A stretch of DNA of 64,000 bases, from NCBI RefSeq assembly GCF_964213995.1, contig NC_135816.1:92132001-92196000 (forward strand), in the 5' to 3' direction. Every line of letters starts with the position of its first letter. The first letter of the stretch is position 1. A program made the position numbers and the translations under genes. The notes under the pieces are model-generated. The model was not told the DNA's origin and ran no database searches. It saw only the letters and a list, made by a program, of their open reading frames with translations. Positions 1,101 through 39,515 of this stretch are shown here, piece by piece. This DNA comes from Mustelus asterias. Its lineage: Eukaryota.

Positions 1101-2543
1101 TCACTACATATTGTTCTGAAAGAATGGGGTCATACCTATTCAACCACCTTTTATCAATTCAATCCTTTGTATATATTTCACGTTGACTATTCATTGTGTA
1201 TTAATAGATTAATTTATCCATCTGGTTAAGACCCACTAATCCCCTTTATGGAGAAGCCCCTAACTGTAGTTTGGTTCAATCAGAAAATTTCAGATAACTA
1301 TCAGTCCTTTTCTGTATTTCCCTCTTCTATTAATGAGCCACTTTCAACTTCCAGACTTTTGAACTTCTCGTGGTCATTTTGACATTAAAGGATGAATAGG
1401 GATAATGATTTGATAATCATCCGCAAGGCTGTGTTTATATTATGTTTCTAATCCATCTACCAAGGCTCATACTGAGTCAGAGGATCTGCTGCTTTAGAAC
1501 CATCAAGGGCGTTACAACATGGAACGGAGCATTTACCTGGGCAAAATACGTACATTTCCATTTTCGGATGGCAATTATGGCAGTGTTCCGGGGATCAGAT
1601 CAGACACACAAGCACAGAGGTATGGGAAAATCAACCGTGCCAATGTGAGGATTGTTCACACACCTAAAGGGATTTAGAATTTTTTACTGTGGCTTGCGCT
1701 TTGTATAAAATATGCTGTAGTTAATGGCGACTGTGGGGTGGTATTTTGTTGCCTGTCTTGAGCACAGATATATTGCAATGCAGAAAAATGTTCACCAGCT
1801 ATATGTGGAAAAGGATTCATTCAGTCATCGTGTTTACTGACACGCACACTGGAAAGAGACTGTTCAGAAATTTCACATGTGGGAAAGAGTTTCCCTATGT
1901 GCTTCTTTTTGTAACAATCAACAAATCAGTTTTCCCATCTGTTATTTGTCATTTATATTCATGATTTGGATGAGAATATAGGAGGCATGGTTAGTAAGGT
2001 TGCAGATGACACCAAGATTGGTGGCGTAGTGGATAGCGAAGAAAGTTATCTCCGATTGCAAAGGGATCTTGATCAATTGGGCAAGTGGGCTGACGAATGG
2101 CAGATGGAGTTTAATTTAGATAAACGCAAGGTGATGCATTTTGGTAGATTGAACCAAGGCAGGACTTTCTCAGTTAATGGTAGGGCACATTGGGGAGAGA
2201 TACAGAACAAAGAGATCTGGGGTACATGTTCATAGCTCCTTGAAAGTGGAGTCACAGGTGGATAGAGTGGTGAAGAAGGCATTCAGCATGCTTGGTTTCA
2301 TTGGTCAGAACATTGAATACAGGAGTTGGGACATCTTGTTGAAGTTGTACAAGACATTGGTAAGGCCACACTTGGAGTACTGTGTACAGTTCTGGCCACC
2401 CTATGATAGAAAGGATATTATTAAACTAGAAAAACTGCAGAAAAGATTTACTCGGATGCTACCGGGATTTGATGGTTTGAGTTATAAGTAAGAAGTTTAA
2501 CAACACCAGGTTAAAGTCCAACAGGTTTATTTGGTAGCAAAAG

Positions 2544-2590
2544 CCACACAAGCTTTCGGAGCTCTAAGCCCCTTCTTCAGGTGAGTGGGA
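2544..2590 (-). ncRNA. Minimal type-I hammerhead ribozyme motif in the PLE pLTR
   Basis: cac-CUGAAGA-a-ggggc/gcucc-GAAA-gcUU-gug; the + strand copy at 3441-3475 has GAAA changed to GATA. Confidence 0.7.
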
Positions 2591-2786
2591 ATTCTGTTCA
2601 CAAACAGAGCTTATAAAGACACAGACTCAATTTACATGAATAATGGTTGGAATGCGAATACTTACAACTAATCAAGTCTTTAAGAAACGAAACAATGTGA
2701 GTGGAGAGAGCATCAAGACAGGCTAAAAAGATGTGTATTGTCTCCAGACAATACTAGCAGAAATACTAGCGCAGATATGTAGTTTC

Positions 2787-3157
2787 TGGAACCAGCAGGG
2801 TGCGAGAAGGGGTAAGAACGAGGAGAGGCGAATATAGACGAATAATACATTTTACAATCCACTTCCATCACTGGGATAGTGAGACAAAGATTAAAAACAC
2901 TTCCCAACCTGTCTCCATTAATATATCACAACAAAAATATTTTTGTTTTCTCTGCGCAAATCCTCCCCTTCCAATTCCCTTTAAAAGTTGATTGATCACA
3001 ATCTGTCCCACGGTGAATGATGGGTTAAAGCATCAGTAAGTATTAAGTGTCAATCTCGGTTAATTCTAAGTAGTGCTTTGTGATCCAGTTAGGATTATAG
3101 TCAAAGGATTCTGACATAAAATTAACAATTAATCGTTTGAACAATTCTAGTGGATTC
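2787..3157 (-). repeat. Inverted copy (about 98% identical) of 4222-4592
   Basis: Base-by-base comparison gives about 7 mismatches in 371 bp. Confidence 0.95.
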
Positions 3158-4592
3158 TGATAGCCAAGTTCCGCACACACGAGGACGGCCTCAACCGGGA
3201 TATTGGGTTCATGTCACACTATTTGTAACTCCCACAGTTGCGTGGACCTGCAGAGTTTCACTGGCTGTCTTGTCTGGAGACAATACACATCTTTTTAGCC
3301 TGTCTTGATGCTCTCTCCACTCACATTGTTTCGTTTCTTAAAGACTTGATTAGTTGTAAGTATTCGCATTCCAACCATTATTCATGTAAATTGAGTCTGT
3401 GTCTTTATAAGCTCTGTTTGTGAACAGAATTCCCACTCACCTGAAGAAGGGGCTTAGCGCTCCGATAGCTTGTGTGGCTTTTGCTACCAAATAAACCTGT
3501 TGGACTTTAACCTGGTGTTGTTAAACTTCTTACTGTGTTTACCCCAGTCCAACGCCGGCATCTCCACATCTTGAGTTATAAGGACAGGCGGGGTAGACTG
3601 GGACTTGTTTCTCTGAAGCGTAGAAGGCTGAGGGATGATCTTATAGAGGTGTATAAAATAATGAGGGGCATCGATCAGCTAGATCGTCAATATCTTTTCC
3701 CAAAGGTAGGGGAGTCTAAAACTAGAGGGCATAGGTTTACGGTGAGAGGGAAGAGATAGAAAAGTGTCCACAGGGGCAATTGTTTCACACAGCGGGTGGT
3801 GAGTGTCTGGAACAAGCTGCCAGAGGTAGTAGTAGAGGCGGGTACAATTTTGTCTTTTAAAAAGCATTTAGACAGTTACATGGATAAGATGGGTACAGAG
3901 GGAAATGGGCCAAATGCGGGCAATTGGGATTAACTTAGGGGTTTTAAAAAAAAGGGCGGATGGATAAGTTGGGCCGATGTTTCCATGCTGTAAACCTCTA
4001 AACTTCTATCTGTAAACTCTCCAGATTTAAAATTTCAATGGATTATTGCATAATTGGTGTACTCTGTATGGTGAGAGACTCTTTTAACGTTGTGTTAAAG
4101 AAAAAGATTGATTCAGTCATCCGACCTGGTGACCTATGAGTAGAGGCTCACAGTTGACTCAAAGGTAGTTTATTTTGTTATTGCTGTTAATCATATTCAG
4201 GGTAGCGCTATTGCAGTGAACGAATCCACTACAATTGTTCAAACGATTAATTGTTAATTTTATGTCAGAATCCTTTGACTATAATCCTACCTGGATCACA
4301 AAGCATTACTTAGAATTAACCAAGATTGACACTTAATACTTACTGATGCTTTAACCCATCATTCACCGTGGGACAGATTGTGATCAATCGACTTTTAAAG
4401 GGAATTGGAAGGGGAGGATTTGCGCAGAGAAAACAAAAATATTTTTGTTGTGATATATTAATGGAGACAGGTTGGGAAGTGTTTTTAATCTTTGTCTCAC
4501 TATCCCAGTGATGGAAGTGGATTGTAAAATGCATTATTCGTCTATATTCGCCTCTCCTCGTTCTTCCCCCTTCTCGCACCCTGCTGGTTCCA

Positions 4593-5160
4593 ATGAAGAT
4601 GTGGGACAGTTGTTGGATTCAGGGATCCAGGAGGGATCCGAGCCAGAGGAGATTCTCCAGATTGGGAAAGGTAAGGTCATGGAGAGATTTGAAAACAAGG
4701 ATCAACATTTTAAAATTGAGGTGGCGCTTAACTAGGAGTCTATGTGGGTCAGCGGCACAGTGGAGAGAGGTGAATGGGACTGGGTGTGAGTGAGGACCTA
4801 GATAACATAGTTTGCGATGATCTTTGGGGTTTATGGAGTGTAGAATATGGGAGGCCAGCCAGGACTGTGTTAGAATAATCATGTTTTGAGGTAACAGTTG
4901 CATGAATGTAAGTTTCAGAAGCAGGCAAGGGTAAAGTCAGGTGATGCAGAAATTAAAATAAGCATCTTAGCGCAGATATGTAGTGAGATGCTCGGCTTCC
5001 AGTCAAACATGACACCCAGTTTCTGAATTGCCTTGTTTAGCCTCAGTTGCTGAGCAGAGGGATGGAATCAGTAGTTAGGTAGTGAATTTTGAAGCAATAA
5101 CTTCAGTCTTTCCACTATATAATTGGAAAAACATTCTGTTCACCCTGATGTGTCAGACAA
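4593..5160 (-). mobile_element. L2 LINE RT C-terminal fragment
   Basis: Frameshifted match to the L2 motif HAFVTSRLDYSN.LLAGLP...ADLHWL.VK.RL.FKILILVFKSLH. Confidence 0.8.
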
Positions 5161-5552
5161 GTTAGGATGGTGTGTGAATTGAAGATGTTCACAGGTACCT
5201 GCTATCTCGGTCCTTCTAGCTAATGGAGCTTGAGATTATGTGAGGTTCTGTGAAAGTTCTGGTTGAGTTGAGAAATATAAAATACCCCTGCTTCTCTCAC
5301 TTCTCACTCCCTCTCTCCCAAAATGTCCAGAGTCTTGTGTAGTCTTAGGAGATTCTCTTCTCTGAAGGACATTAATATACTAGTAGTATTTTTAAAACAT
5401 TCCAGCAGTTTTCACAGTCACTTTGTCCAGCCCCACAAACTACCAGCTTCATTCAGCTCAATTTCACAACCTGCCTTTGTGTTTTGGTGGCGTCTCTCTC
5501 ACTCCCATTTTTCTGTTTTAAATCAATTTAAAGGGTATTAGAAGGGGAGAAT

Positions 5553-6149
5553 TTGCAGTGAAGAATCAGTGAAGATGTGGGAGAGTTGTTGGATTCAGAG
5601 ATCCAGGAGGGTCCGAGCCAGAGGCAGCACGGTAGCACAGTGGTTAGCACTGCTGCTTCACAGCTCCAGGGACCTGGGTTCGATTCCCGGCTTGGGTCAC
5701 TGTCTGTGTGGAGTTTGCACATTCTCCCCGTGTTTGCGTGGGTTTCCTCCGGGTGCTCCGGTTTCCTCCCACAGTCCAAAGATGTGCGGGTTAGGTTGAT
5801 TGGCCATGCTAAAAATTGCCCTTAGTGTCCTGAGATGCGTCGGTTAGAGGGATTAGTGGGTAAATATGTGAGGGTAGGGCCTGGGTGGGATTGTGGTCGG
5901 TGCAGACTTGATGGGCCGAATGGCCTCTTTCTGTACTGTAGGGTTTCTATGATTTCTATGAGAGGAGATTCTCCAGATTGGGAAAGGTAAGGTCAATGGA
6001 GGATCAACATTTCAAAATTGAGGTGGAGCTTAACTAGGAGTCTATGTGGGTCAGCGAGCACAGTCGGGAGAGGTGAATGGGACTTGGTGTGAGTGAGGAC
6101 CTAGATAACATAGTTTTCGATGATCTCTGAGGTTTATGGAGTGTAGAAT
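5553..6149 (+). repeat. Local direct copy of 4211-4226 plus 4593-4847, interrupted by an HE1 SINE
   Basis: Near-identical sequence sharing the decayed L2 bases; flanked by attagaaggggagaattt(g/a)cagt at 5537-5559 and 6158-6180. Confidence 0.9.
5623..5961 (+). mobile_element. HE1 SINE, full length and young
   Basis: ggcagcacggtagcacagtggttagc A box, ggttcgattccc B box, ctatgatttctatga tail, short agagg duplication. Confidence 0.95.
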
Positions 6150-6157
6150 ACAAGGGG

Positions 6158-6780
6158 ATTAGAAGGGGAGAATTTACAGTCGGGAAGCTCAAACCCAACA
6201 TTCCATCAGGTTCTGACAGAGTCGCCCAGTTCATCACAATATTATTATTACATATCAGATTATGAACACAGAACTGAAAATCACTATTCACAGTGGGGAG
6301 AAACCGTATTCTGTCTGTGGACGAGGCTTCAGCCGATCATCTGGCCTGTCAAAACACAAATAGACTCCATGGAAATATAAGTACGGTGTGAAGGGATTCA
6401 ATTACCCATCCCAGCTGGAAAATCATCAGCACAGTCAACATTGGGAGAAGCCATTCACCAGCTCGGAGTGTGGGAAGGAATTCACTCATTCATCAGAACT
6501 GCTGACACACAAGAGTGTTCAGAGTCAGAACAGACCTTTTAAATTACCAGACTGTAGGCAATGCTGCAAAAGTTCTGGGGATCTGATGTCCCATCAATGT
6601 GTTCACACTGATGAGAGACAATTCAGATGCTCTCACTGTGAGTCTGTGTTCAAGCCATCAAGTCAACTCACTGTACATCAGCTAATTCACACTGGAGAGA
6701 GAATGTTCACCTGCTCCAAGTGTGGGAAGAGATTCCTTCAGTCACCCCACTTGCAGACACACCAGCGAGTTCACAAGTAA
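6158..6780 (+). pseudogene. C2H2 ZNF pseudogene (about 5 fingers, several lacking a Cys or His)
   Basis: ORF 6388-6780 has a non-ATG start, mutated ligands and upstream stops; the exon start is disrupted by a templated insertion. Confidence 0.85.
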
Positions 6781-7621
6781 CTAGTTACTTATTATTAAGG
6801 AAATTATAGCAGGACACTTATAAAATTGAAACCAATCAGGCAGAGTCAAAATGGTTTTTGCAAAAGGCAAATAGTGTTTGATTAGTTTTAGAGTTCTTCA
6901 CTGGGCAGGGAATTCCACAGATTCACAACCCTTTGTGTGAAGAAGCTCCTTCTCAACTCAGTCCTAAATCTGCTCCCCCTTATTTTGGGGAAGTAACAAG
7001 AACATGGACAAAGAGGAAACGGTAGATGTGGTATACCTGGATTCCCAAATGATATTTGCTATGGTGCGACATCAACGCTTACTCCACAAAAATAAAAGCT
7101 CATGGTACAGGGGATAACATATTAGAATAAATAAAGGATGGGTTAGCTAACAAGAAGCAGATGGTAAGGTTAAATGGATCATCTCAAGTTGGCAAGTGTC
7201 ACTTTTGGAGTATCACATGAATCAGTGCTGGAGCCTCAATCAATCATTCATAATTTATATCAATGACTTGGAGGAGCCAAAACTACGGCAGTTAAATTTG
7301 CTCATGGTACAATCATAGGTAGGAGCTGTAGAGACTTAAGGAGCCTGCAAAGGTAAAAAGATAGGTTGGTTAAGTGAGTGAGAAAAGAGTTGGCAGATGT
7401 AGTATAATGTGGAAAAATCACTTGACTGATTCCTAGGATGAAGGGATTATCTTATGAAGAAAGTTGGAAACATTGCATCTATCTGGAAGAACGAGTGGCG
7501 ACGTTTTTAAACTTATCAGATTCTGAGGAGTCCTCATAGCTGGATGCTGAGAGGACATTTCCCCTCATGGGTGAAATGAGAAGTAAAGAACATGGTTAAA
7601 AATAAGGGCCTCCCATTTAAG

Positions 7622-7866
7622 TAAGGAGTCTAACAACACCAGGTTCAAGTCCAACAGGTTTATTTGGTAGCAAACGCCACTTGCTTTCGGAGCGCTGCTC
7701 CTTTGTCAGGTGAGTGGGAGTCCAGAACTCCCACTCACCTGACGAAGGAGCAGTGCTCCGAAAGCTAGTGGCGTTTGCTACCAAATGAACCTGTTGGACT
7801 TGAACCTGGTGTTGTTAGACTCCTTACTGTGTTTACCCCAGTCCAACGCCGGCATCTCCACATCAT
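7622..7866 (+). mobile_element. PLE family-1 fold-back mini-insertion
   Basis: 101-bp inverted arms at 7621-7721 and 7727-7827, 3' tail ccccagtccaacgccggcatctccacatcat, TSD gcctcccatttaag at 7608-7621 and 7867-7880. Confidence 0.9.
7731..7772 (+). ncRNA. Minimal hammerhead ribozyme motif with an intact core
   Basis: ucac-CUGACGA-a-ggagc(agu)gcucc-GAAA-gcUA-gugg. Confidence 0.75.
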
Positions 7867-7932
7867 GCCTCCCATTTAAGACAGAGATGAAGAGAACTTT
7901 TAGATCTCATAGTCTGTGGAATCTCTTCTTCA

Positions 7933-21715: not shown

Positions 21716-22320
21716 CATAGCGAAGGTTTACCAGGCTGATTCCGGGACTGATGTATGAGGAGAGATTGACGAGGTTAGGATTGCTTCCACTGGATTCAGA
21801 CGAATAAGGGGGGGATGTCATAGAAACTTACAAAATTCCAGCACGACTGGACAGGATAGATGCAGGGAGGATATCCCCAATGTTAGGGGAGTCCAGAACC
21901 AGGGTTCACAGTCTGAGGATTCAGGAGAGATGTGGAGATGCCGGCGTTGGACTGGTGTAAACACAGTAAGAAGTCTCACAACACCAGGTTAAAGTCCCAA
22001 CAGGTTTATCAAATAAACCTGTTGGACTTTAACCTGGTGTTATGAGACTTTTTCCTGTGATTCAGGAGAGACCAGTGAGGACAGAGGTGAGGAGACATTT
22101 CTTCACCCAAAGAGGGGTGAGCCTGTGGAATTAATTACCACAGGAAGTAGTTGATGCCAAAACATTGAATGCATTCAAGACGCGGCTGGATATAGCACTT
22201 GGGGCAAATGGGATCAAAGGTTATGGGGAAAAAGCAGGATTAGGCAGGATATTGAGTTGGATGATCAGCTATGATAATGAATGGCAGAGCAAGCTGCTGC
22301 TATCTTCTATGTTTCTATGA
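21716..22320 (+). mobile_element. CR1 3' end, interrupted by a PLE mini-insertion
   Basis: RRFTRLIPGL and FFTQR.VSLWN motifs; ttctatgtttctatga tail. Confidence 0.85.
21930..22058 (-). mobile_element. PLE family-1 minimal fold-back insertion, no ribozyme core
   Basis: Tail gatgtggagatgccggcgttggactgg, inverted arms of about 45 bp, TSD gattcaggagag at 21918-21929 and 22059-22070. Confidence 0.88.
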
Positions 22321-28234: not shown

Positions 28235-28900
28235 AGATGTGAGACAACAGCAACCTGACCAAGAGCCAAACTGCAAGTCTGCCAAGCCTGCGCCATCAGC
28301 ACACTCGTCTACAATAGTGCGATCTGGACAATATTCCTTAATGTGGAGATGCCGGCGTTGGACTGGGGTGAACACAGTAAGAAGTCTCACAACACCAGGT
28401 TAAAGTCCAACAGGTTTATTTGTAGCAAATACCAGAAGCTTTCGGAGCGCTGCTCCTTCGTCAGATGGAGTGGAAATGTGCTCTCAAACAGTGCACAGAG
28501 ACCTCTGACGAAGGAGCAGCGCTCCGAAAGCTTATGGTATTTGCTACCAAATAAACCTGTTGGACTTTAACCTGGTGTTGTGAGACTTCTTACAATATTC
28601 CTTAGTCAGGAGAAAAGGATGAACAGTTTCTACCTTTGCAGTCTCAGATGTATCACTAGCATCACATAGTCGCTAACTCAGGGGCCCTGGCACATGCTAA
28701 TTTCATCCACTTGTTTGAAATTCAATGATCTTTGTGGTGGCTCGGTCACATGCATTGGGTGGATGTGGACGGTAAACACAGACATCTTCTGTACAGTGAA
28801 CTCGGCACTGGTTAACAATCCTCTGGGGATCCAGGCCTCCAGTAAAAGCAGGATATGAAGGTCGTGGGCAACGATACTGACAATTGTTGGCAAACAATGA
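28235..28900 (+). mobile_element. RTE LINE C-terminal fragment, interrupted at 28341-28591
   Basis: KLQV.QAC.ISTL.Y...WTI..SQEKRMNSF.L..LR and WLGHMH...HLLYSEL.TG remnants. Confidence 0.7.
28341..28591 (-). mobile_element. PLE family-1 fold-back insertion with two hammerhead cores
   Basis: Inverted arms at about 28377-28465 and 28504-28593; CTGACGA-a-ggagc/gctcc-GAAA on both strands; TSD acaatattcctta at 28328-28340 and 28592-28604. Confidence 0.9.
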
Positions 28901-34480: not shown

Positions 34481-35191
34481 CACAGAGACTGGAGATGTTC
34501 GGGGACAGGCAGCTGGAATCAAAGGCAACAAATATATCTATCATGTAAATATTTTTAAATTTACATACTAAACTATACATATATATATCGATCCAGAACG
34601 AGAGAACATAGATTTAAAGCGATTTGCAAAAGAAACAAATGTGCAAATAGAGGCTGAAGGGTTCAATAATTAAGTCAAGAAACAAATTATACTGAAATTT
34701 AACTTTAAGGACCATATTGCCCAGTAGAAAGGAAGAGAATGAGAATTGGTGGAGAATCGAGAATTCCCAAAACAGCAGTAAAACATTCGAATCCAAGCCC
34801 TACGTGAAGTCATTGGTGCCTGAACTAGTGGGAAGAACAAATGAAGTACTTTCCATGCGAGGGGACTTTTAAATTTCCTTCCCCGCAATATGAAAATGCT
34901 GATCTTGCATCAGATCCTTTGAATGTTCAAAGTTGGAGGGAAAACTGGATAAATCGTTTTGCCCTCTTGAATTATCTGCTTGTTCTCTCTCCAGAGTGAC
35001 TGTGCTGCTGTATCAGAAGGTCGGATGACGGTGGAGCCTGTTTTCATTCGCAGGCAAAGAAAATCTTCTCCCTGATCTGACTTTTTTCAGCTTACACTGA
35101 TAATGGAGTTATTCCTTAAAGTAAACAACAATTCTTTGCATTTATACATCATCTTTAATGTAATGAAAACATCCTGAGATGCTAATGTTAA

Positions 35192-35341
35192 CACAGTAAG
35201 GAGTCTAACAACACCAGGTTAAAGTCCAACAGGTTTATTTGGTAGCAAACGCCACTACCAAATAAACCCGTTCGACTTTAACCTGGTGTTGTTAGACTCC
35301 TTACTGCGTTTACCCCAGTCCAACGACGGCATCTCCACATC
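35192..35341 (+). mobile_element. PLE family-1 minimal fold-back insertion, no ribozyme core
   Basis: Inverted arms of about 50 bp plus tail; TSD atgctaatgttaa at 35179-35191 and 35342-35354. Confidence 0.88.
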
Positions 35342-35850
35342 ATGCTAATGTTAAGCCAGTGTGTGCTTGTGTTTCTAATTTAGTACCAAAGACATACTGG
35401 TATAATTTGTATACAGGAAAACTGGGAATGCACATATTTTGCCAACATTAATCTGACACCATAAAATGTATCATCACATTGTATAACATTCCTGTAGCTT
35501 AGTATGATCTTTGCCTAGGTGGATCTATTTGGAATTAACTCCAAATTTGAATTATTTGTTTGTTTATCACACACCTTTATTTTAGCCAAATGTCTTGAAA
35601 CTGATAGTCTCTCGGGTATATTTATTCCAACAACCTTAAAGCTATCTTTCTTGTTCACAGTTGTCTTTCTACTGCCCCTGTATCAAGTTCATCCAATTTT
35701 TATATCTCAATTATTTTTTAGCCACATTTTTCATAACCCGTATCCTATCTGAATCCTTCCCAACGATACAGATTTTGTTCCCAAAAATGTGTCATGAAGC
35801 AGAAATTATGAGTACAGTCATGTAAGAGGTAGCCTTTCTTAAGGAGGCCA

Positions 35851-36439: not shown

Positions 36440-39400
36440 ATACAGTAAGGATGGAAGGACAGGTGATGTGTCAAGGCTGCAGCACGTGGGTGCTCGTATT
36501 ATCTGCACTCAGTGCTTGTGGGATGAGTAACTTTAGTTCAGAGTCATTGAGCTGGAGGATGAGTTGCAGACACCTCAGCACATCAAGGGAATGGACAATT
36601 ATCTGGATGCTTTCAGGAAGTTCGGTAAAGGAAGAGTGTACCAAACGTGACCAGACAGATTGTCTGAGAAAGCGGGGCAGAGAGCAGGGGAAGTCACGAT
36701 TAAATTGCATTTATTTCAATGCATGAGGCCTGACGGGCAAGTCAGATGAACTCAGGGCATGGATGAGTACATGGGATTGGGATATTATAGCTGTTAATGA
36801 AACATGGCTAAGTGACCTGCCAATCTTGCCACTCCATGTTCCAGGATACAGATGCTACAAGAAAGATAGGCGGTAGGAGAGGAGAGGAAGTTGCGTTTTT
36901 GATTAGGGAAAACATCACAGCAGTACTGAGAGGGGATATATCCGAGGGTTCGCCCAGTGAGCCTATATGGGTAGAACTGAAAAATAAGAAGGGAAAGATC
37001 ACAGGCCCCAAATCGTCAGTGGGAAATTGAGGAGCAAGTATGTAAGGACATTACCGATAGCTGCAAGAAAAATAGGGTGGTAATAGGGAACTTTAACTTT
37101 CCCAGTATTGACTGGGACAGCCATAGCATTAGGGGGCATGGATGAAGAGAAATTTGTTGATTGTATTGAGGAGGAATTTCTCATTCAGTATGTGGATGGC
37201 CTGACTAGAGAGGGGGCAAAACTTGATCTCCCCTTTGGAAATAAGAAAGAGCAGGTGACAGAAGTGTTTGCAAAAGATCTCTTTGGGACCAATGACTACA
37301 ATTCCATTAGTTTTAAGACAGCTATGGAGAATGATAGGTCTGGCCCAAAAGTTAAAATTCTAAATTGGCGCAAGGGCAATTTTGATGGTATTAGCCAGGG
37401 GCATTCAAACGTTGATTAGGGGAGTCTGTTGGCAGGCAAGGTTTCCAAAAGTGTGCTAACCAGGATTCAGGGTAAGCACCTTCCTTTTAGAATGAAGGGC
37501 AAAGCCGGTAGAAGTAGGGAACCCTGGATGACTCAGGATATTGAGGACCTGGTCAAGAAGAAGAAGGAGGTATATGACATACCTGGGCAGCTGGGATCAA
37601 GTGTCCCTTGATCCACTGAAGAGTTTAGAGGGTGTCGGAGTAGAGTTAAGAGTGAAATCAGGAGGGCAAAAAGGGGCATGGAATTGCTTTGGCAGATAAG
37701 GCAAAGGAGAATGTAAAAAGCTTCTACAAATACATAAAGGGCAAAATAGTAACTGGGGAGCGAGTAGGGCCTCTTAAGGATCAACAAGGTCATCTATGTG
37801 CAGATCCACAGGTGATAGGTGAGATCCTAAATGAATATTTCTCATTGGTATTTACTGTTGAGAAAGGCATGAATGTTAGGGAACTTGGGGAAATAAATAG
37901 TGATGTCTTGAGGAGTGTACATATTACAGACAAGATGGTGCTGGACGTCTTAAAGTGCATCAAGGTAGATAAATTTCCAGGACCTGATGAAGCGTCTCCC
38001 AGGGTGTTATGGGACGCTCGGGAGGAAATTGCGAGTCCCCTAGCAGAGATATTTGAATCATCAACAGCCACAAGTGAAGTGCCTGAAGATTGGAGGGTAG
38101 CAAATCTTGTGCCTTTGTTTCAGAAAGGCTGCAGGGAAAAGCCTGGGAATTACAGACAGTGAGCCTAACATCTGTAGTGGGTAAGTTGTTAGAAGGTATT
38201 CCGAGAGACAGGATCTACAGGCATTTGGACAGGGAAGGACTGATTGGGGACAGTCAGTATGGCTTTTTGAGTGGAAAATCATGTCTCACAAATTTGATTG
38301 AGTTTTTTTGAAGAGGTAAGCAAGAAGGTAGATGAGGGAAGTGCAGTAGACGTTGTCTACATGGACAAGGCCTTTGAAAAGGTACCACATGGTAGGTTGC
38401 TGCATAAGGTAAATCTCACGGGATCCAGGGCAAGGTACCCAATCCTTGTCTTGACGACAGAAGACAGAGGGTGGTTGTAGACGGTTGTTTTTCAAACTGG
38501 AGGCCTGTGACCAGCAGTGTGCCTCAATGATTGGTGCTGGGTTCACTGTTATTTGTTATTTATGTTAATGATTTGGATGAAAATTTAGGAAGCATGGTTA
38601 GTAAGTTTGCAGATGACACCAAGATTGGTGGCATAGTAGACAGTGAAGAAGGTTATCTCGGATTGCAATGGGATCTTGATCAATTAGCCCAGTGGCCCGA
38701 TGAATGGCAGATGGAGTTTAATTTAGATAAATACGAGGTGATGCATTTTGGTAGATCGAATCGGGGCAGGACCTACTCAATTAATGTTATGGCGTTTGGG
38801 AAAGTTATAGAACAAAGATCTCTGGGTACAGGTTCATGGCTGCTTGAAAGTGGAGTCACAGATGGACAGGGTGGTGAAGAAGGCATTTGCCATGCTTGGT
38901 TTCATTGGTCAGAACATTGAATACAGGAGTTGGAACGACTTGATGTTGTACAAGACATTCCTAAGGCGACACTTGGAATACTGTGTACAGTTCTGGTCAC
39001 CCTATTATCGAAAGAATGTTATTAAACTAGGAGGAGTGCAGAAGGATTTATAAGATGTTACCAGGACTTGATGGTTTGAGTTATAAGAGAGCCTTGATAG
39101 ACTAAAAGTTTTTTTCCCTGGAGTGTTGGTGGCTTCAGGGTGATCTTATCGAAATCTAAAAAATAATGAGGAGTATAGATGAGATAGATAGTCAACATTT
39201 TCCCAAAGGTAGGGGAGTCTAAAACCAGAGGTCATAGATTTAAGTTGAGAGCGGAGAGATACAAAAGTGTCCAGAGGGACAATGTTTTCACGCAGAGGAT
39301 AGTGAGTGTCTGGAACGAGCTGCCAGAGGCAGTAGTAGAGGCGGGTACAATTTTGTGTTTTAAAAAGCATTTATACAGTTACATGGGTATGATGGATATA

Positions 39401-39515
39401 GAGGGATATGGGCCTAATACAGGCAAATGGGACTAGCTTACTGGTAAAAGCTGAGTGGTATGGACAAGTTGGTCTGAAGGGCCTGTTTCCATGCTGTAAA
39501 CCTCTATGACTCCAT
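36440..39515 (+). mobile_element. Near full-length decayed CR1/HER1 LINE (ORF1 N-terminus, APE endonuclease, RT, 3' end)
   Basis: MEGQVMCQGC (ORF1 start), CIYFNA, DIIAVNETWL, PEDWRVAN, SKFADDTKIGG and HLEYCVQFWSP, with many frameshifts. Confidence 0.92.

What the first reader, a model, noticed from the sequence alone, without database searches (positions are those of the whole stretch)
2477..3582. Penelope hairpin insertion that captured neighbouring ZNF-cluster DNA
Seen: between the inverted pLTR arms, all inside a 12-bp TSD, lie (a) a 17-nt exact direct match to 4968-4984 (tagcgcagatatgtagt at 2767-2783) and (b) a 371-bp inverted copy of 4222-4592 at about 98% identity. That divergence is similar to that between the arms. 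The captured piece contains a ZNF splice-acceptor-like junction (ttttaaag|ggaattggaaggggaggatttgc, compare 5527-5558). Inference: the PLE integration switched templates onto nearby DNA several times, which would let PLEs shuffle pieces of ZNF genes.
Basis: partly seen in the sequence, partly recalled or inferred. Interest (0 to 1): 0.7.

Follow-up and report, generated by a model that had tools for sequence, protein, structure and literature searches.

The report
Penelope insertion seams copy nearby DNA
A young Penelope-like jumping-gene insertion holds, between its two mirror-image halves, a 371-base inverted copy and a 17-base copy of DNA lying 0.7-1.4 kb away; 3 to 4 of 100 sister hairpins hold such local copies, which are likely scars left when the two halves were joined, and the copied DNA is non-coding and has not spread, so zinc-finger gene shuffling is not shown.

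Summary
Inside a 12-bp target duplication, two head-to-head Penelope-like (PLE) arms flank a 35-nt filler with a 17-nt exact copy of 4968-4984 and a 371-nt inverted copy of 4222-4592 (7 mismatches). A contig from public runs spans the left junction with no differences. The 371 nt exists near-identically at only these two places, and paralogues show 4222-4592 is the donor. The event recurs: 3 of 100 unselected sister hairpins carry 37-186 nt from within 0.7 kb (4 with a 14-nt case), and one more, outside that sample, has the same anatomy. Best reading: both ends of the cut prime cDNA, and host end-joining copies exposed flank DNA while joining them (0.55); jumping by the PLE polymerase itself remains open (0.25). 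ZNF shuffling is not supported: the piece has no finger-coding sequence, is antisense to the gene, and none of three captured pieces tested has spread. Local templated insertions are known for L1; my searches found none described at PLE seams. This scan noted the same thing in two other genomes.

The parts
2477..2488 (+). left copy of the 12-bp target-site duplication
   Evidence: single copy in paralogous LINE at about 39075-39086
2489..2751 (-). left arm: inverted PLE 3' end without the tail (about -36 to -300 from the element's 3' end)
   Evidence: no mismatches to sister copy L128
2752..2786 (+). 35-nt seam filler with an internal 9-nt direct repeat (2750-2758 = 2762-2770)
2767..2783 (+). 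17-nt exact direct copy of 4968-4984
   Evidence: paralogues differ at this word
2787..3157 (-). 371-nt inverted copy of 4222-4592; 2-nt (TG) overlap with the filler side, 1-nt overlap with the right arm
2904..2985 (-). copied exon-like non-coding block (homologue of 4394-4475), antisense to the ZNF gene, donor position GG
3158..3570 (+). right arm: 5'-truncated PLE 3' end (-413 to 0) with the 36-nt tail (3535-3570); hammerhead-like core changed at 3458 and 3466
3571..3582 (+). right copy of the target-site duplication
4222..4592 (+). donor of the 371-nt copy, 652-1022 nt right of the insertion
   Evidence: colinear with paralogues L004/L006 across 4592 and L003 across 4222
4946..5025 (+). donor stretch of the short pieces: 8-mer 4946-4953, 17-mer 4968-4984, 8-mer 5018-5025, in the same order as in the filler
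2001..4000 (+). host LINE fragment interrupted by the insertion

Best explanation
This is a head-to-head Penelope-like insertion whose seam holds copies of DNA from 0.7-1.4 kb away, likely made by host end-joining while two cDNA ends, probably primed from both sides of one 12-nt staggered cut, were being joined. Shown: the duplication, the two arms with the tail on one, the copied pieces, their donors and the recurrence. Inferred steps: (1) the PLE protein cuts both strands 12 nt apart and extends both 3' ends on PLE RNA from its two start sites; (2) the two cDNAs are not complementary, so joining needs end-joining, which in most sisters is direct; (3) here the right flank was resected or opened for at least 1.4 kb, exposing its bottom strand; (4) the right cDNA end folded back on that strand at 4222 and copied 371 nt, giving an inverted copy; (5) the left cDNA end made short abortive rounds on the same strand (4946-5025), giving direct copies and a stutter; (6) the two ends joined at a 2-nt overlap. 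The short rounds resemble polymerase theta templated insertions; the long tract resembles synthesis-dependent annealing.
For: Family anatomy: of 102 automatically paired central head-to-head units, 93 have the tail on exactly one arm and 86 have a TSD of 8 nt or more, 71 of them 12-14 nt; after dropping 2 false pairings, 83 of 100 have seams of 6 nt or less. The tail-less arm reaches further 5' in 41 units and the tail arm in 21, which fold-back copying of one arm cannot give; a purified PLE protein cleaves and extends both strands from two start sites (PMC11167929, parts 1-2 of 4 read). One template polarity explains all pieces if each end made the piece next to it: the bottom strand of the right flank, the strand that 5' resection leaves (inference); it is antisense to the ZNF gene. 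Two 8-mers flank the 17-mer in donor order; both occur together at 10 of 99,814 control anchors (post hoc). Same anatomy in L045: 12-bp TSD, 174-nt 100% copy from 830-1005 nt away, fourfold stutter of the donor's first bases, 3-nt overlap at the join. L103, L153, L159 and L081 in the unselected set. An older insertion with no PLE at 5560-6151 has the same signature (copy of 4591-4847, stutter, 29-nt duplication), so host repair makes such scars here unaided. The copy is no less diverged than the arms, so not younger.
Against: Polymerase theta insertions are described as 3-30 bp, typically from within 30 bp of the break, with distal templates under 0.1% (PMC7165422, passages); 371 nt from 650-1020 nt away is far outside that. 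Overlaps at the long copy's ends are only 1 and 2 nt. The strand argument has one real test (this locus); single-piece cases fit either end, and L153 fits only if one end made all its pieces. The filler words AGCAGAAA and AGCGCAGA also occur in the PLE just 5' of the right arm's end, so the first 8-mer may come from cDNA, not from 4946. Three of 100 seams hold LINE or SINE 3' pieces and several hold internal PLE pieces or long stutters (45 nt x5 in L143), which suggests the PLE polymerase can itself jump. No enzyme was tested.
Confidence: 0.55

Rival explanations
1. The PLE reverse transcriptase itself switched templates onto nearby DNA after running off its RNA.
For: Seams also hold internal PLE pieces (L134, L159), LINE/SINE 3' pieces (L102, L176, L178) and long stutters (L143), all natural for a jumping, telomerase-related polymerase. 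In L153 a copied piece ends at the 3' start site of an older PLE copy. Overlaps are very short, and PAc starts without homology. For L1, the authors leave open whether ORF2p or host factors make such insertions (PMC11702581, passages).
Against: DNA-templated jumping was not reported in the parts of PMC11167929 that I read (2 of 4). A PLE-free insertion with the same signature lies at 5560-6151, and other PLE-free local duplicates occur in the flanks.
Confidence: 0.25
2. The hairpin inserted with a plain seam and later broke at its apex; repair then copied local DNA in.
For: Fillers are commoner in near-symmetric hairpins (8 of 29 versus 7 of 63; Fisher p=0.068). Long inverted repeats are fragile (own knowledge; one search gave listings only).
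Against: The copy is not younger than the arms (7 of 371 versus 2 of 263). The long captures sit mostly in asymmetric units (this one -300/-413; L153 -433/-126; L103 -352/-300; L159 -232/-284), although L045 and L081 are near-symmetric.
Confidence: 0.12
3. The polymerase jumped from PLE RNA onto the local ZNF pre-mRNA.
For: The donors lie inside a + strand ZNF transcription unit by homology; an inverted copy made from the left end would fit a sense RNA.
Against: The short pieces beside the left arm are direct and the long piece beside the right arm is inverted, so sense RNA alone cannot template both. No RNA data were examined.
Confidence: 0.05
4. Assembly artefact, or the 371 nt belongs to the element.
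For: Inverted repeats trouble assemblies (PMC8557442, passages). No listed contig spans the right junction or the whole structure.
Against: A 110-nt contig at 2726-2835 with 0 differences and depth 17, similar to single-copy neighbours, appears in 2 of 4 runs laid (one sample) and includes the insert-specific base at 2813. The copy has 7 differences from its donor. Sister PLE copies carry ordinary PLE sequence 5' of 3158, and the 371 nt is near-identical at 2 of 28 matches only.
Confidence: 0.03

Closest known systems
Endonuclease-bearing Penelope-like element insertions with an inverted 5'-truncated copy and a 30-40 bp tail (PMC3846280 and PMC8557442, passages; PMC11167929, parts 1-2 of 4)
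   Same: Head-to-head arms, TSD, tail on one arm, RT ORF overlapping the pLTR in a tandem copy. PMC3846280 also reports unique host-derived spacers of 0.9-1.5 kb in Pen1 and host sequences captured between pLTRs.
   Different: In the passages read, no donor near the insertion site is identified and the spacers lie before a direct 3' pLTR; here the captured DNA sits at the seam between inverted arms and comes from within 1.5 kb. No spread of captured DNA is seen here, unlike the NRPS gene case.
L1 templated insertions and twin priming (10.1101/2024.08.27.596794, passages; PMC11702581, passages)
   Same: Local genomic DNA copied into a retrotransposon insertion; two ends extended by RT and joined by end-joining at an inversion junction.
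   Different: L1: 22 instances among 3,598 solo insertions (not searched for specifically), typically under 250 bp and within 15 bp of the site. Here 3-4 of 100, with donors 58-1400 nt away, and both arms start at the element's 3' start sites. Supplementary figures on the L1 cases were not seen and may show more distant donors.
Polymerase theta templated insertions, TINS (PMC7165422, passages)
   Same: Short direct repeats from the other end, inverse repeats by fold-back, several aborted rounds, tiny overlaps.
   Different: TINS are 3-30 bp from within about 30 bp of the break; the 371-nt tract and the 0.7-1.4 kb distance are atypical.

Membership tests
EN+ Penelope-like element | single ORF with reverse transcriptase | tested here: met
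   sister copy L129 has an 833-aa open frame with Pfam RVT_1, E 7.5e-10; window arms are 98-99% identical to sister copies
EN+ Penelope-like element | C-terminal GIY-YIG endonuclease | tested here: inconclusive
   no Pfam GIY-YIG hit at E<=0.01; no other test run
EN+ Penelope-like element | pLTR in partial tandem, overlapping the ORF | tested here: met
   L129: -601..0 piece directly followed by the -3014..-36 copy
EN+ Penelope-like element | inverted 5'-truncated partner, 30-40 bp tail on one end, TSD | tested here: met
   93 of 102 units with the tail on one arm, 86 of 102 with TSD; 36-nt tail here
EN+ Penelope-like element | hammerhead motif in the pLTR | tested here: inconclusive
   Rfam found no hammerhead; a core-like motif is read by eye from a recalled consensus
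EN+ Penelope-like element | RT groups with PLE/telomerase RTs; clade | not tested
   no tree built
Polymerase theta templated insertion | short repeats of flanking DNA with several rounds | tested here: met
   35-nt filler with a 9-nt repeat and 8/17/8-nt matches; stutter in L045
Polymerase theta templated insertion | tract 3-30 bp from within about 30 bp of the break | tested here: not met
   371 nt from 652-1022 nt away; 17 nt from 1398 nt away
Polymerase theta templated insertion | dependence on POLQ | not testable with these tools
   needs cells
Retrotransposon transduction / exon shuffling | captured DNA carried to new loci | tested here: not met
   near-identical copies only at donor and seam for this locus (2 of 28 matches), L045 (2 of 3) and L159 (2 of 40 scored, 835 candidates)
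Retrotransposon transduction / exon shuffling | captured piece is coding or a usable exon | tested here: not met
   no tblastn match to a ZNF protein at E 10; antisense; donor GG; splicing itself not tested

The most novel reading that the evidence does not exclude
PLE insertions are routinely two-ended, and their seam is a template-jumping site where the telomerase-related PLE polymerase itself copies chromosomal DNA up to 1.4 kb away, other retroelement RNAs and its own RNA. About 3-4% of hairpins (roughly 100 loci in this subfamily by extrapolation) would then hold host DNA between pLTRs, ready to be moved in trans, and these seams would read out the unsolved second half of the PLE cycle.
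Probability: 0.25. Interest if true: 0.7.

Novelty: new variant of a known kind. Interest (0 to 1): 0.42.

Why it matters
How a PLE insertion is completed after first-strand synthesis is stated to be unvalidated (PMC11167929). Seams with templated pieces record that step: they favour two separately primed cDNA ends joined by end-joining over self-priming of one strand, and show that flank DNA more than 1 kb away is accessible during it. The rate (3-4 of 100) and reach exceed those reported for L1 in the passages read, and give a cheap genomic assay for strand and distance rules. As a source of new gene structure this case is inert.

Tried and rejected
Element-borne spacer: rejected. Reverse direction of copying: rejected, donor is colinear with paralogues across both ends. 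Two separate PLE insertions around an older duplicate: rejected, one TSD flanks everything and the host LINE is continuous. Insert-type bases at 4290, 4306, 4322 and 4390 in the X19/X20 donor contig: most simply a collapsed graph (two bubbles), so not used as evidence of alleles or gene conversion. Lack of contig cover at 2943-3140 is not evidence. Rfam gave only hairpin microRNA models below gathering score. One search translated the wrong frame and one search failed on a missing end; neither was used. Side bias of donors (5 of 6 loci on the tail-arm side) is not significant (p=0.22). Survey rows dropped: L118 and L197 (false pairings); 47 of 147 loci had no central pair and showed no distant local copy at their 5' ends (L120 and L051 only repeat adjacent target bases). 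The 110-nt piece in L153 may come from any copy of an older subfamily and is not counted as local. Literature searches for PLE seams with local DNA and for L1 or retrotransposon plus polymerase theta found no description for PLEs; the library lacks most subscription papers. Only the first 100 matches of each motif were listed, so the survey covers C1 and part of C2.

Full report
Observation. The structure is as described. A 12-bp duplication (2477-2488, 3571-3582) flanks the insertion. The LINE on both sides is colinear with a paralogue at 38608-39506 that has the 12-mer once. Inside lie a left arm (2489-2751, inverted PLE 3' end, 2 mismatches to the right arm), a 35-nt filler (2752-2786), a 371-nt inverted copy of 4222-4592 (7 mismatches, no gaps) and a right arm (3158-3570). 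The 17-mer at 2767-2783 equals 4968-4984; the best match of the filler in 87 other loci is 14 nt, and paralogues differ at that word.

Artefact and direction. Of 4 runs laid, two (one sample) give a 110-nt contig over 2726-2835 with no differences and single-copy depth, bridging arm, filler and copy. No listed piece spans the right junction or the whole structure, so that part rests on the assembly. The 371 nt has 28 matches in the genome, 2 of them above 90% over more than 50 nt: donor and copy. The donor region is colinear with ZNF-cluster paralogues across both ends (4393-5558 at 71-75%, 4011-4383 at 76%), so 4222-4592 is the source. Sister PLE copies carry ordinary PLE sequence 5' of 3158.

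The element. The arms are 96-99% identical to ten dispersed copies. One sister has an 833-aa frame with an RT domain; Pfam did not report the endonuclease. Two diagnostic 24-mers occur 1,186 and 4,854 times. I fetched the loci of the first 100 listed matches of each, 147 loci on C1 and C2 after merging and removing overlaps. Automatic pairing gave 102 central head-to-head units: 93 have the tail on one arm only and 86 have a TSD, mostly 12-14 nt. Two were false pairings; of the remaining 100, 83 have seams of 6 nt or less. Either arm may reach further 5' (41 versus 21). This matches the inverted copy and tail described for PLEs (PMC3846280, PMC8557442; passages) and fits a protein that cleaves and extends both strands from two start sites (PMC11167929; parts 1-2 of 4).

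Recurrence. Three of the 100 seams hold local DNA of 30 nt or more: L103 (37 nt exact, inverted, 384 nt away), L153 (140 nt, 98.6%, inverted, about 500-635 nt away) and L159 (186 nt, 99.5%, direct, 58-243 nt away, followed by an internal PLE piece). L081 adds a 14-nt exact match at 651 nt, reached by 0 of 146 control loci. Exact 95% intervals: 0.6-8.5% for 3 and 1.1-9.9% for 4. L045, from the 20 loci picked by similarity, repeats this window's anatomy: 12-bp TSD, 174 nt at 100% from 830-1005 nt away, and a fourfold stutter of the donor's first bases. Local duplicates away from seams exist but are sparse, about 14 non-tandem cases in 871 kb by my count, far too few to land on 3-4% of seams by chance (inference).

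Mechanism. Each arm reads as first-strand cDNA on its own strand, so the seam is a join of two non-complementary ends (inference). Here the pieces beside the left arm are direct copies from 4946-5025 in donor order (8, 17 and 8 nt; both flanking 8-mers occur together at 10 of 99,814 control anchors, a post hoc test), and the piece beside the right arm is inverted. If each end made its neighbouring piece, all were copied from the bottom strand of the right flank, which 5' resection would leave single-stranded and which is antisense to the ZNF gene. That argues for a DNA template and against the pre-mRNA. It is one test only, and two filler words also occur in the PLE just beyond the right arm's end, so the left end may first have copied the other cDNA and then used that 8-nt word to land at 4969. 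The short rounds resemble polymerase theta insertions, but those are described as 3-30 bp from within about 30 bp (PMC7165422; passages), so the 371-nt tract needs a more processive step. A PLE-free insertion of the same type at 5560-6151 shows that host repair can do this. Against a purely host origin, 3 of 100 seams hold LINE or SINE 3' pieces and others hold internal or repeated PLE pieces, which a jumping RT would explain. Later breakage of the hairpin is less likely because the copy is not younger than the arms (p=0.32), though fillers lean towards symmetric units (p=0.068).

ZNF shuffling. The captured DNA has no similarity to a ZNF protein. The acceptor-like word begins a block of about 80 nt found on many contigs; 7 of 8 aligned homologues that cover its end have GT there, while this copy has GG. 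In the insert it is antisense to the gene. The captured pieces of this locus, L045 and L159 each occur near-identically at two places only (the last scored 40 of 835 candidates). Movement in trans remains conceivable, since PLEs moved a host gene between pLTRs in a rotifer (PMC3846280), but nothing here shows it.

Known versus new. Head-to-head PLE units are known, and local templated insertions are known for L1: 22 instances, typically under 250 bp and within 15 bp (10.1101/2024.08.27.596794; passages), and three in an experimental set (PMC11702581; passages). Supplementary figures of these papers were not seen. My searches found no account of local DNA at PLE seams. Earlier notes of this scan report the same in two other genomes, one with an estimate of 3%, and twin priming in this genome; I had reached my reading before opening them, and they are unchecked notes, not support.

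Verdict. Real, recurrent and informative about how PLE insertions are finished, but a variant of known retrotransposon junction scars, with no sign of gene shuffling. Interest 0.42.

Noticed in passing
window 5531-6181: Older local templated insertion with no PLE: a copy of 4591-4847 (235 matches, 11 mismatches, 4 gaps), later split by a SINE, sits at the start of the ZNF exon between two copies of a 29-nt duplication and begins with a short stutter. Its donor abuts the end of the 371-nt donor at 4591-4592, which is unexplained.
   Followed up: partly
L102:3690-6359, L176:3431-3748, L178:3347-3702: LINE or SINE 3' pieces sit exactly in the seam of 3 of 100 hairpins, one with a 22-nt fourfold stutter; either co-integration by template jump or later targeting of the seam.
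   Followed up: partly
L143:3618-3888; L088, L100, L117, L209 seams: Seams built of repeated copies of PLE sequence, up to 45 nt five times, reminiscent of repeat addition by a telomerase-related polymerase.
   Followed up: no
L043:2306-3226, L046:3548-4540, L049:4832-5659, L117:4527-4934: Non-PLE pieces interrupt PLE arms with only 1-5 nt overlap; those in L046 and L049 are 99.5% identical to each other, so a young repeat family.
   Followed up: no
L096:4438-5704 and 6381-7457; L132:5760-6090; L136:4203-4661: Near-identical local duplicates of otherwise unique DNA not tied to a PLE seam; L096 is a patchwork into which a PLE later inserted.
   Followed up: no
window 6152-6780: The ZNF exon downstream has an in-frame stop near 6361 and only 2 canonical C2H2 fingers; likely a decayed gene.
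   Followed up: partly
window 7620-7867, 21928-22062, 28341-28593, 35187-35344: Four more short hairpin insertions of related PLE subfamilies in the window.
   Followed up: no
L070 and L125: Two independent insertions show the same TSD sequence, close to this window's (TTGGTTATAGAA versus TTGAGTTATAAG), hinting at a preferred site in a repeat family.
   Followed up: no
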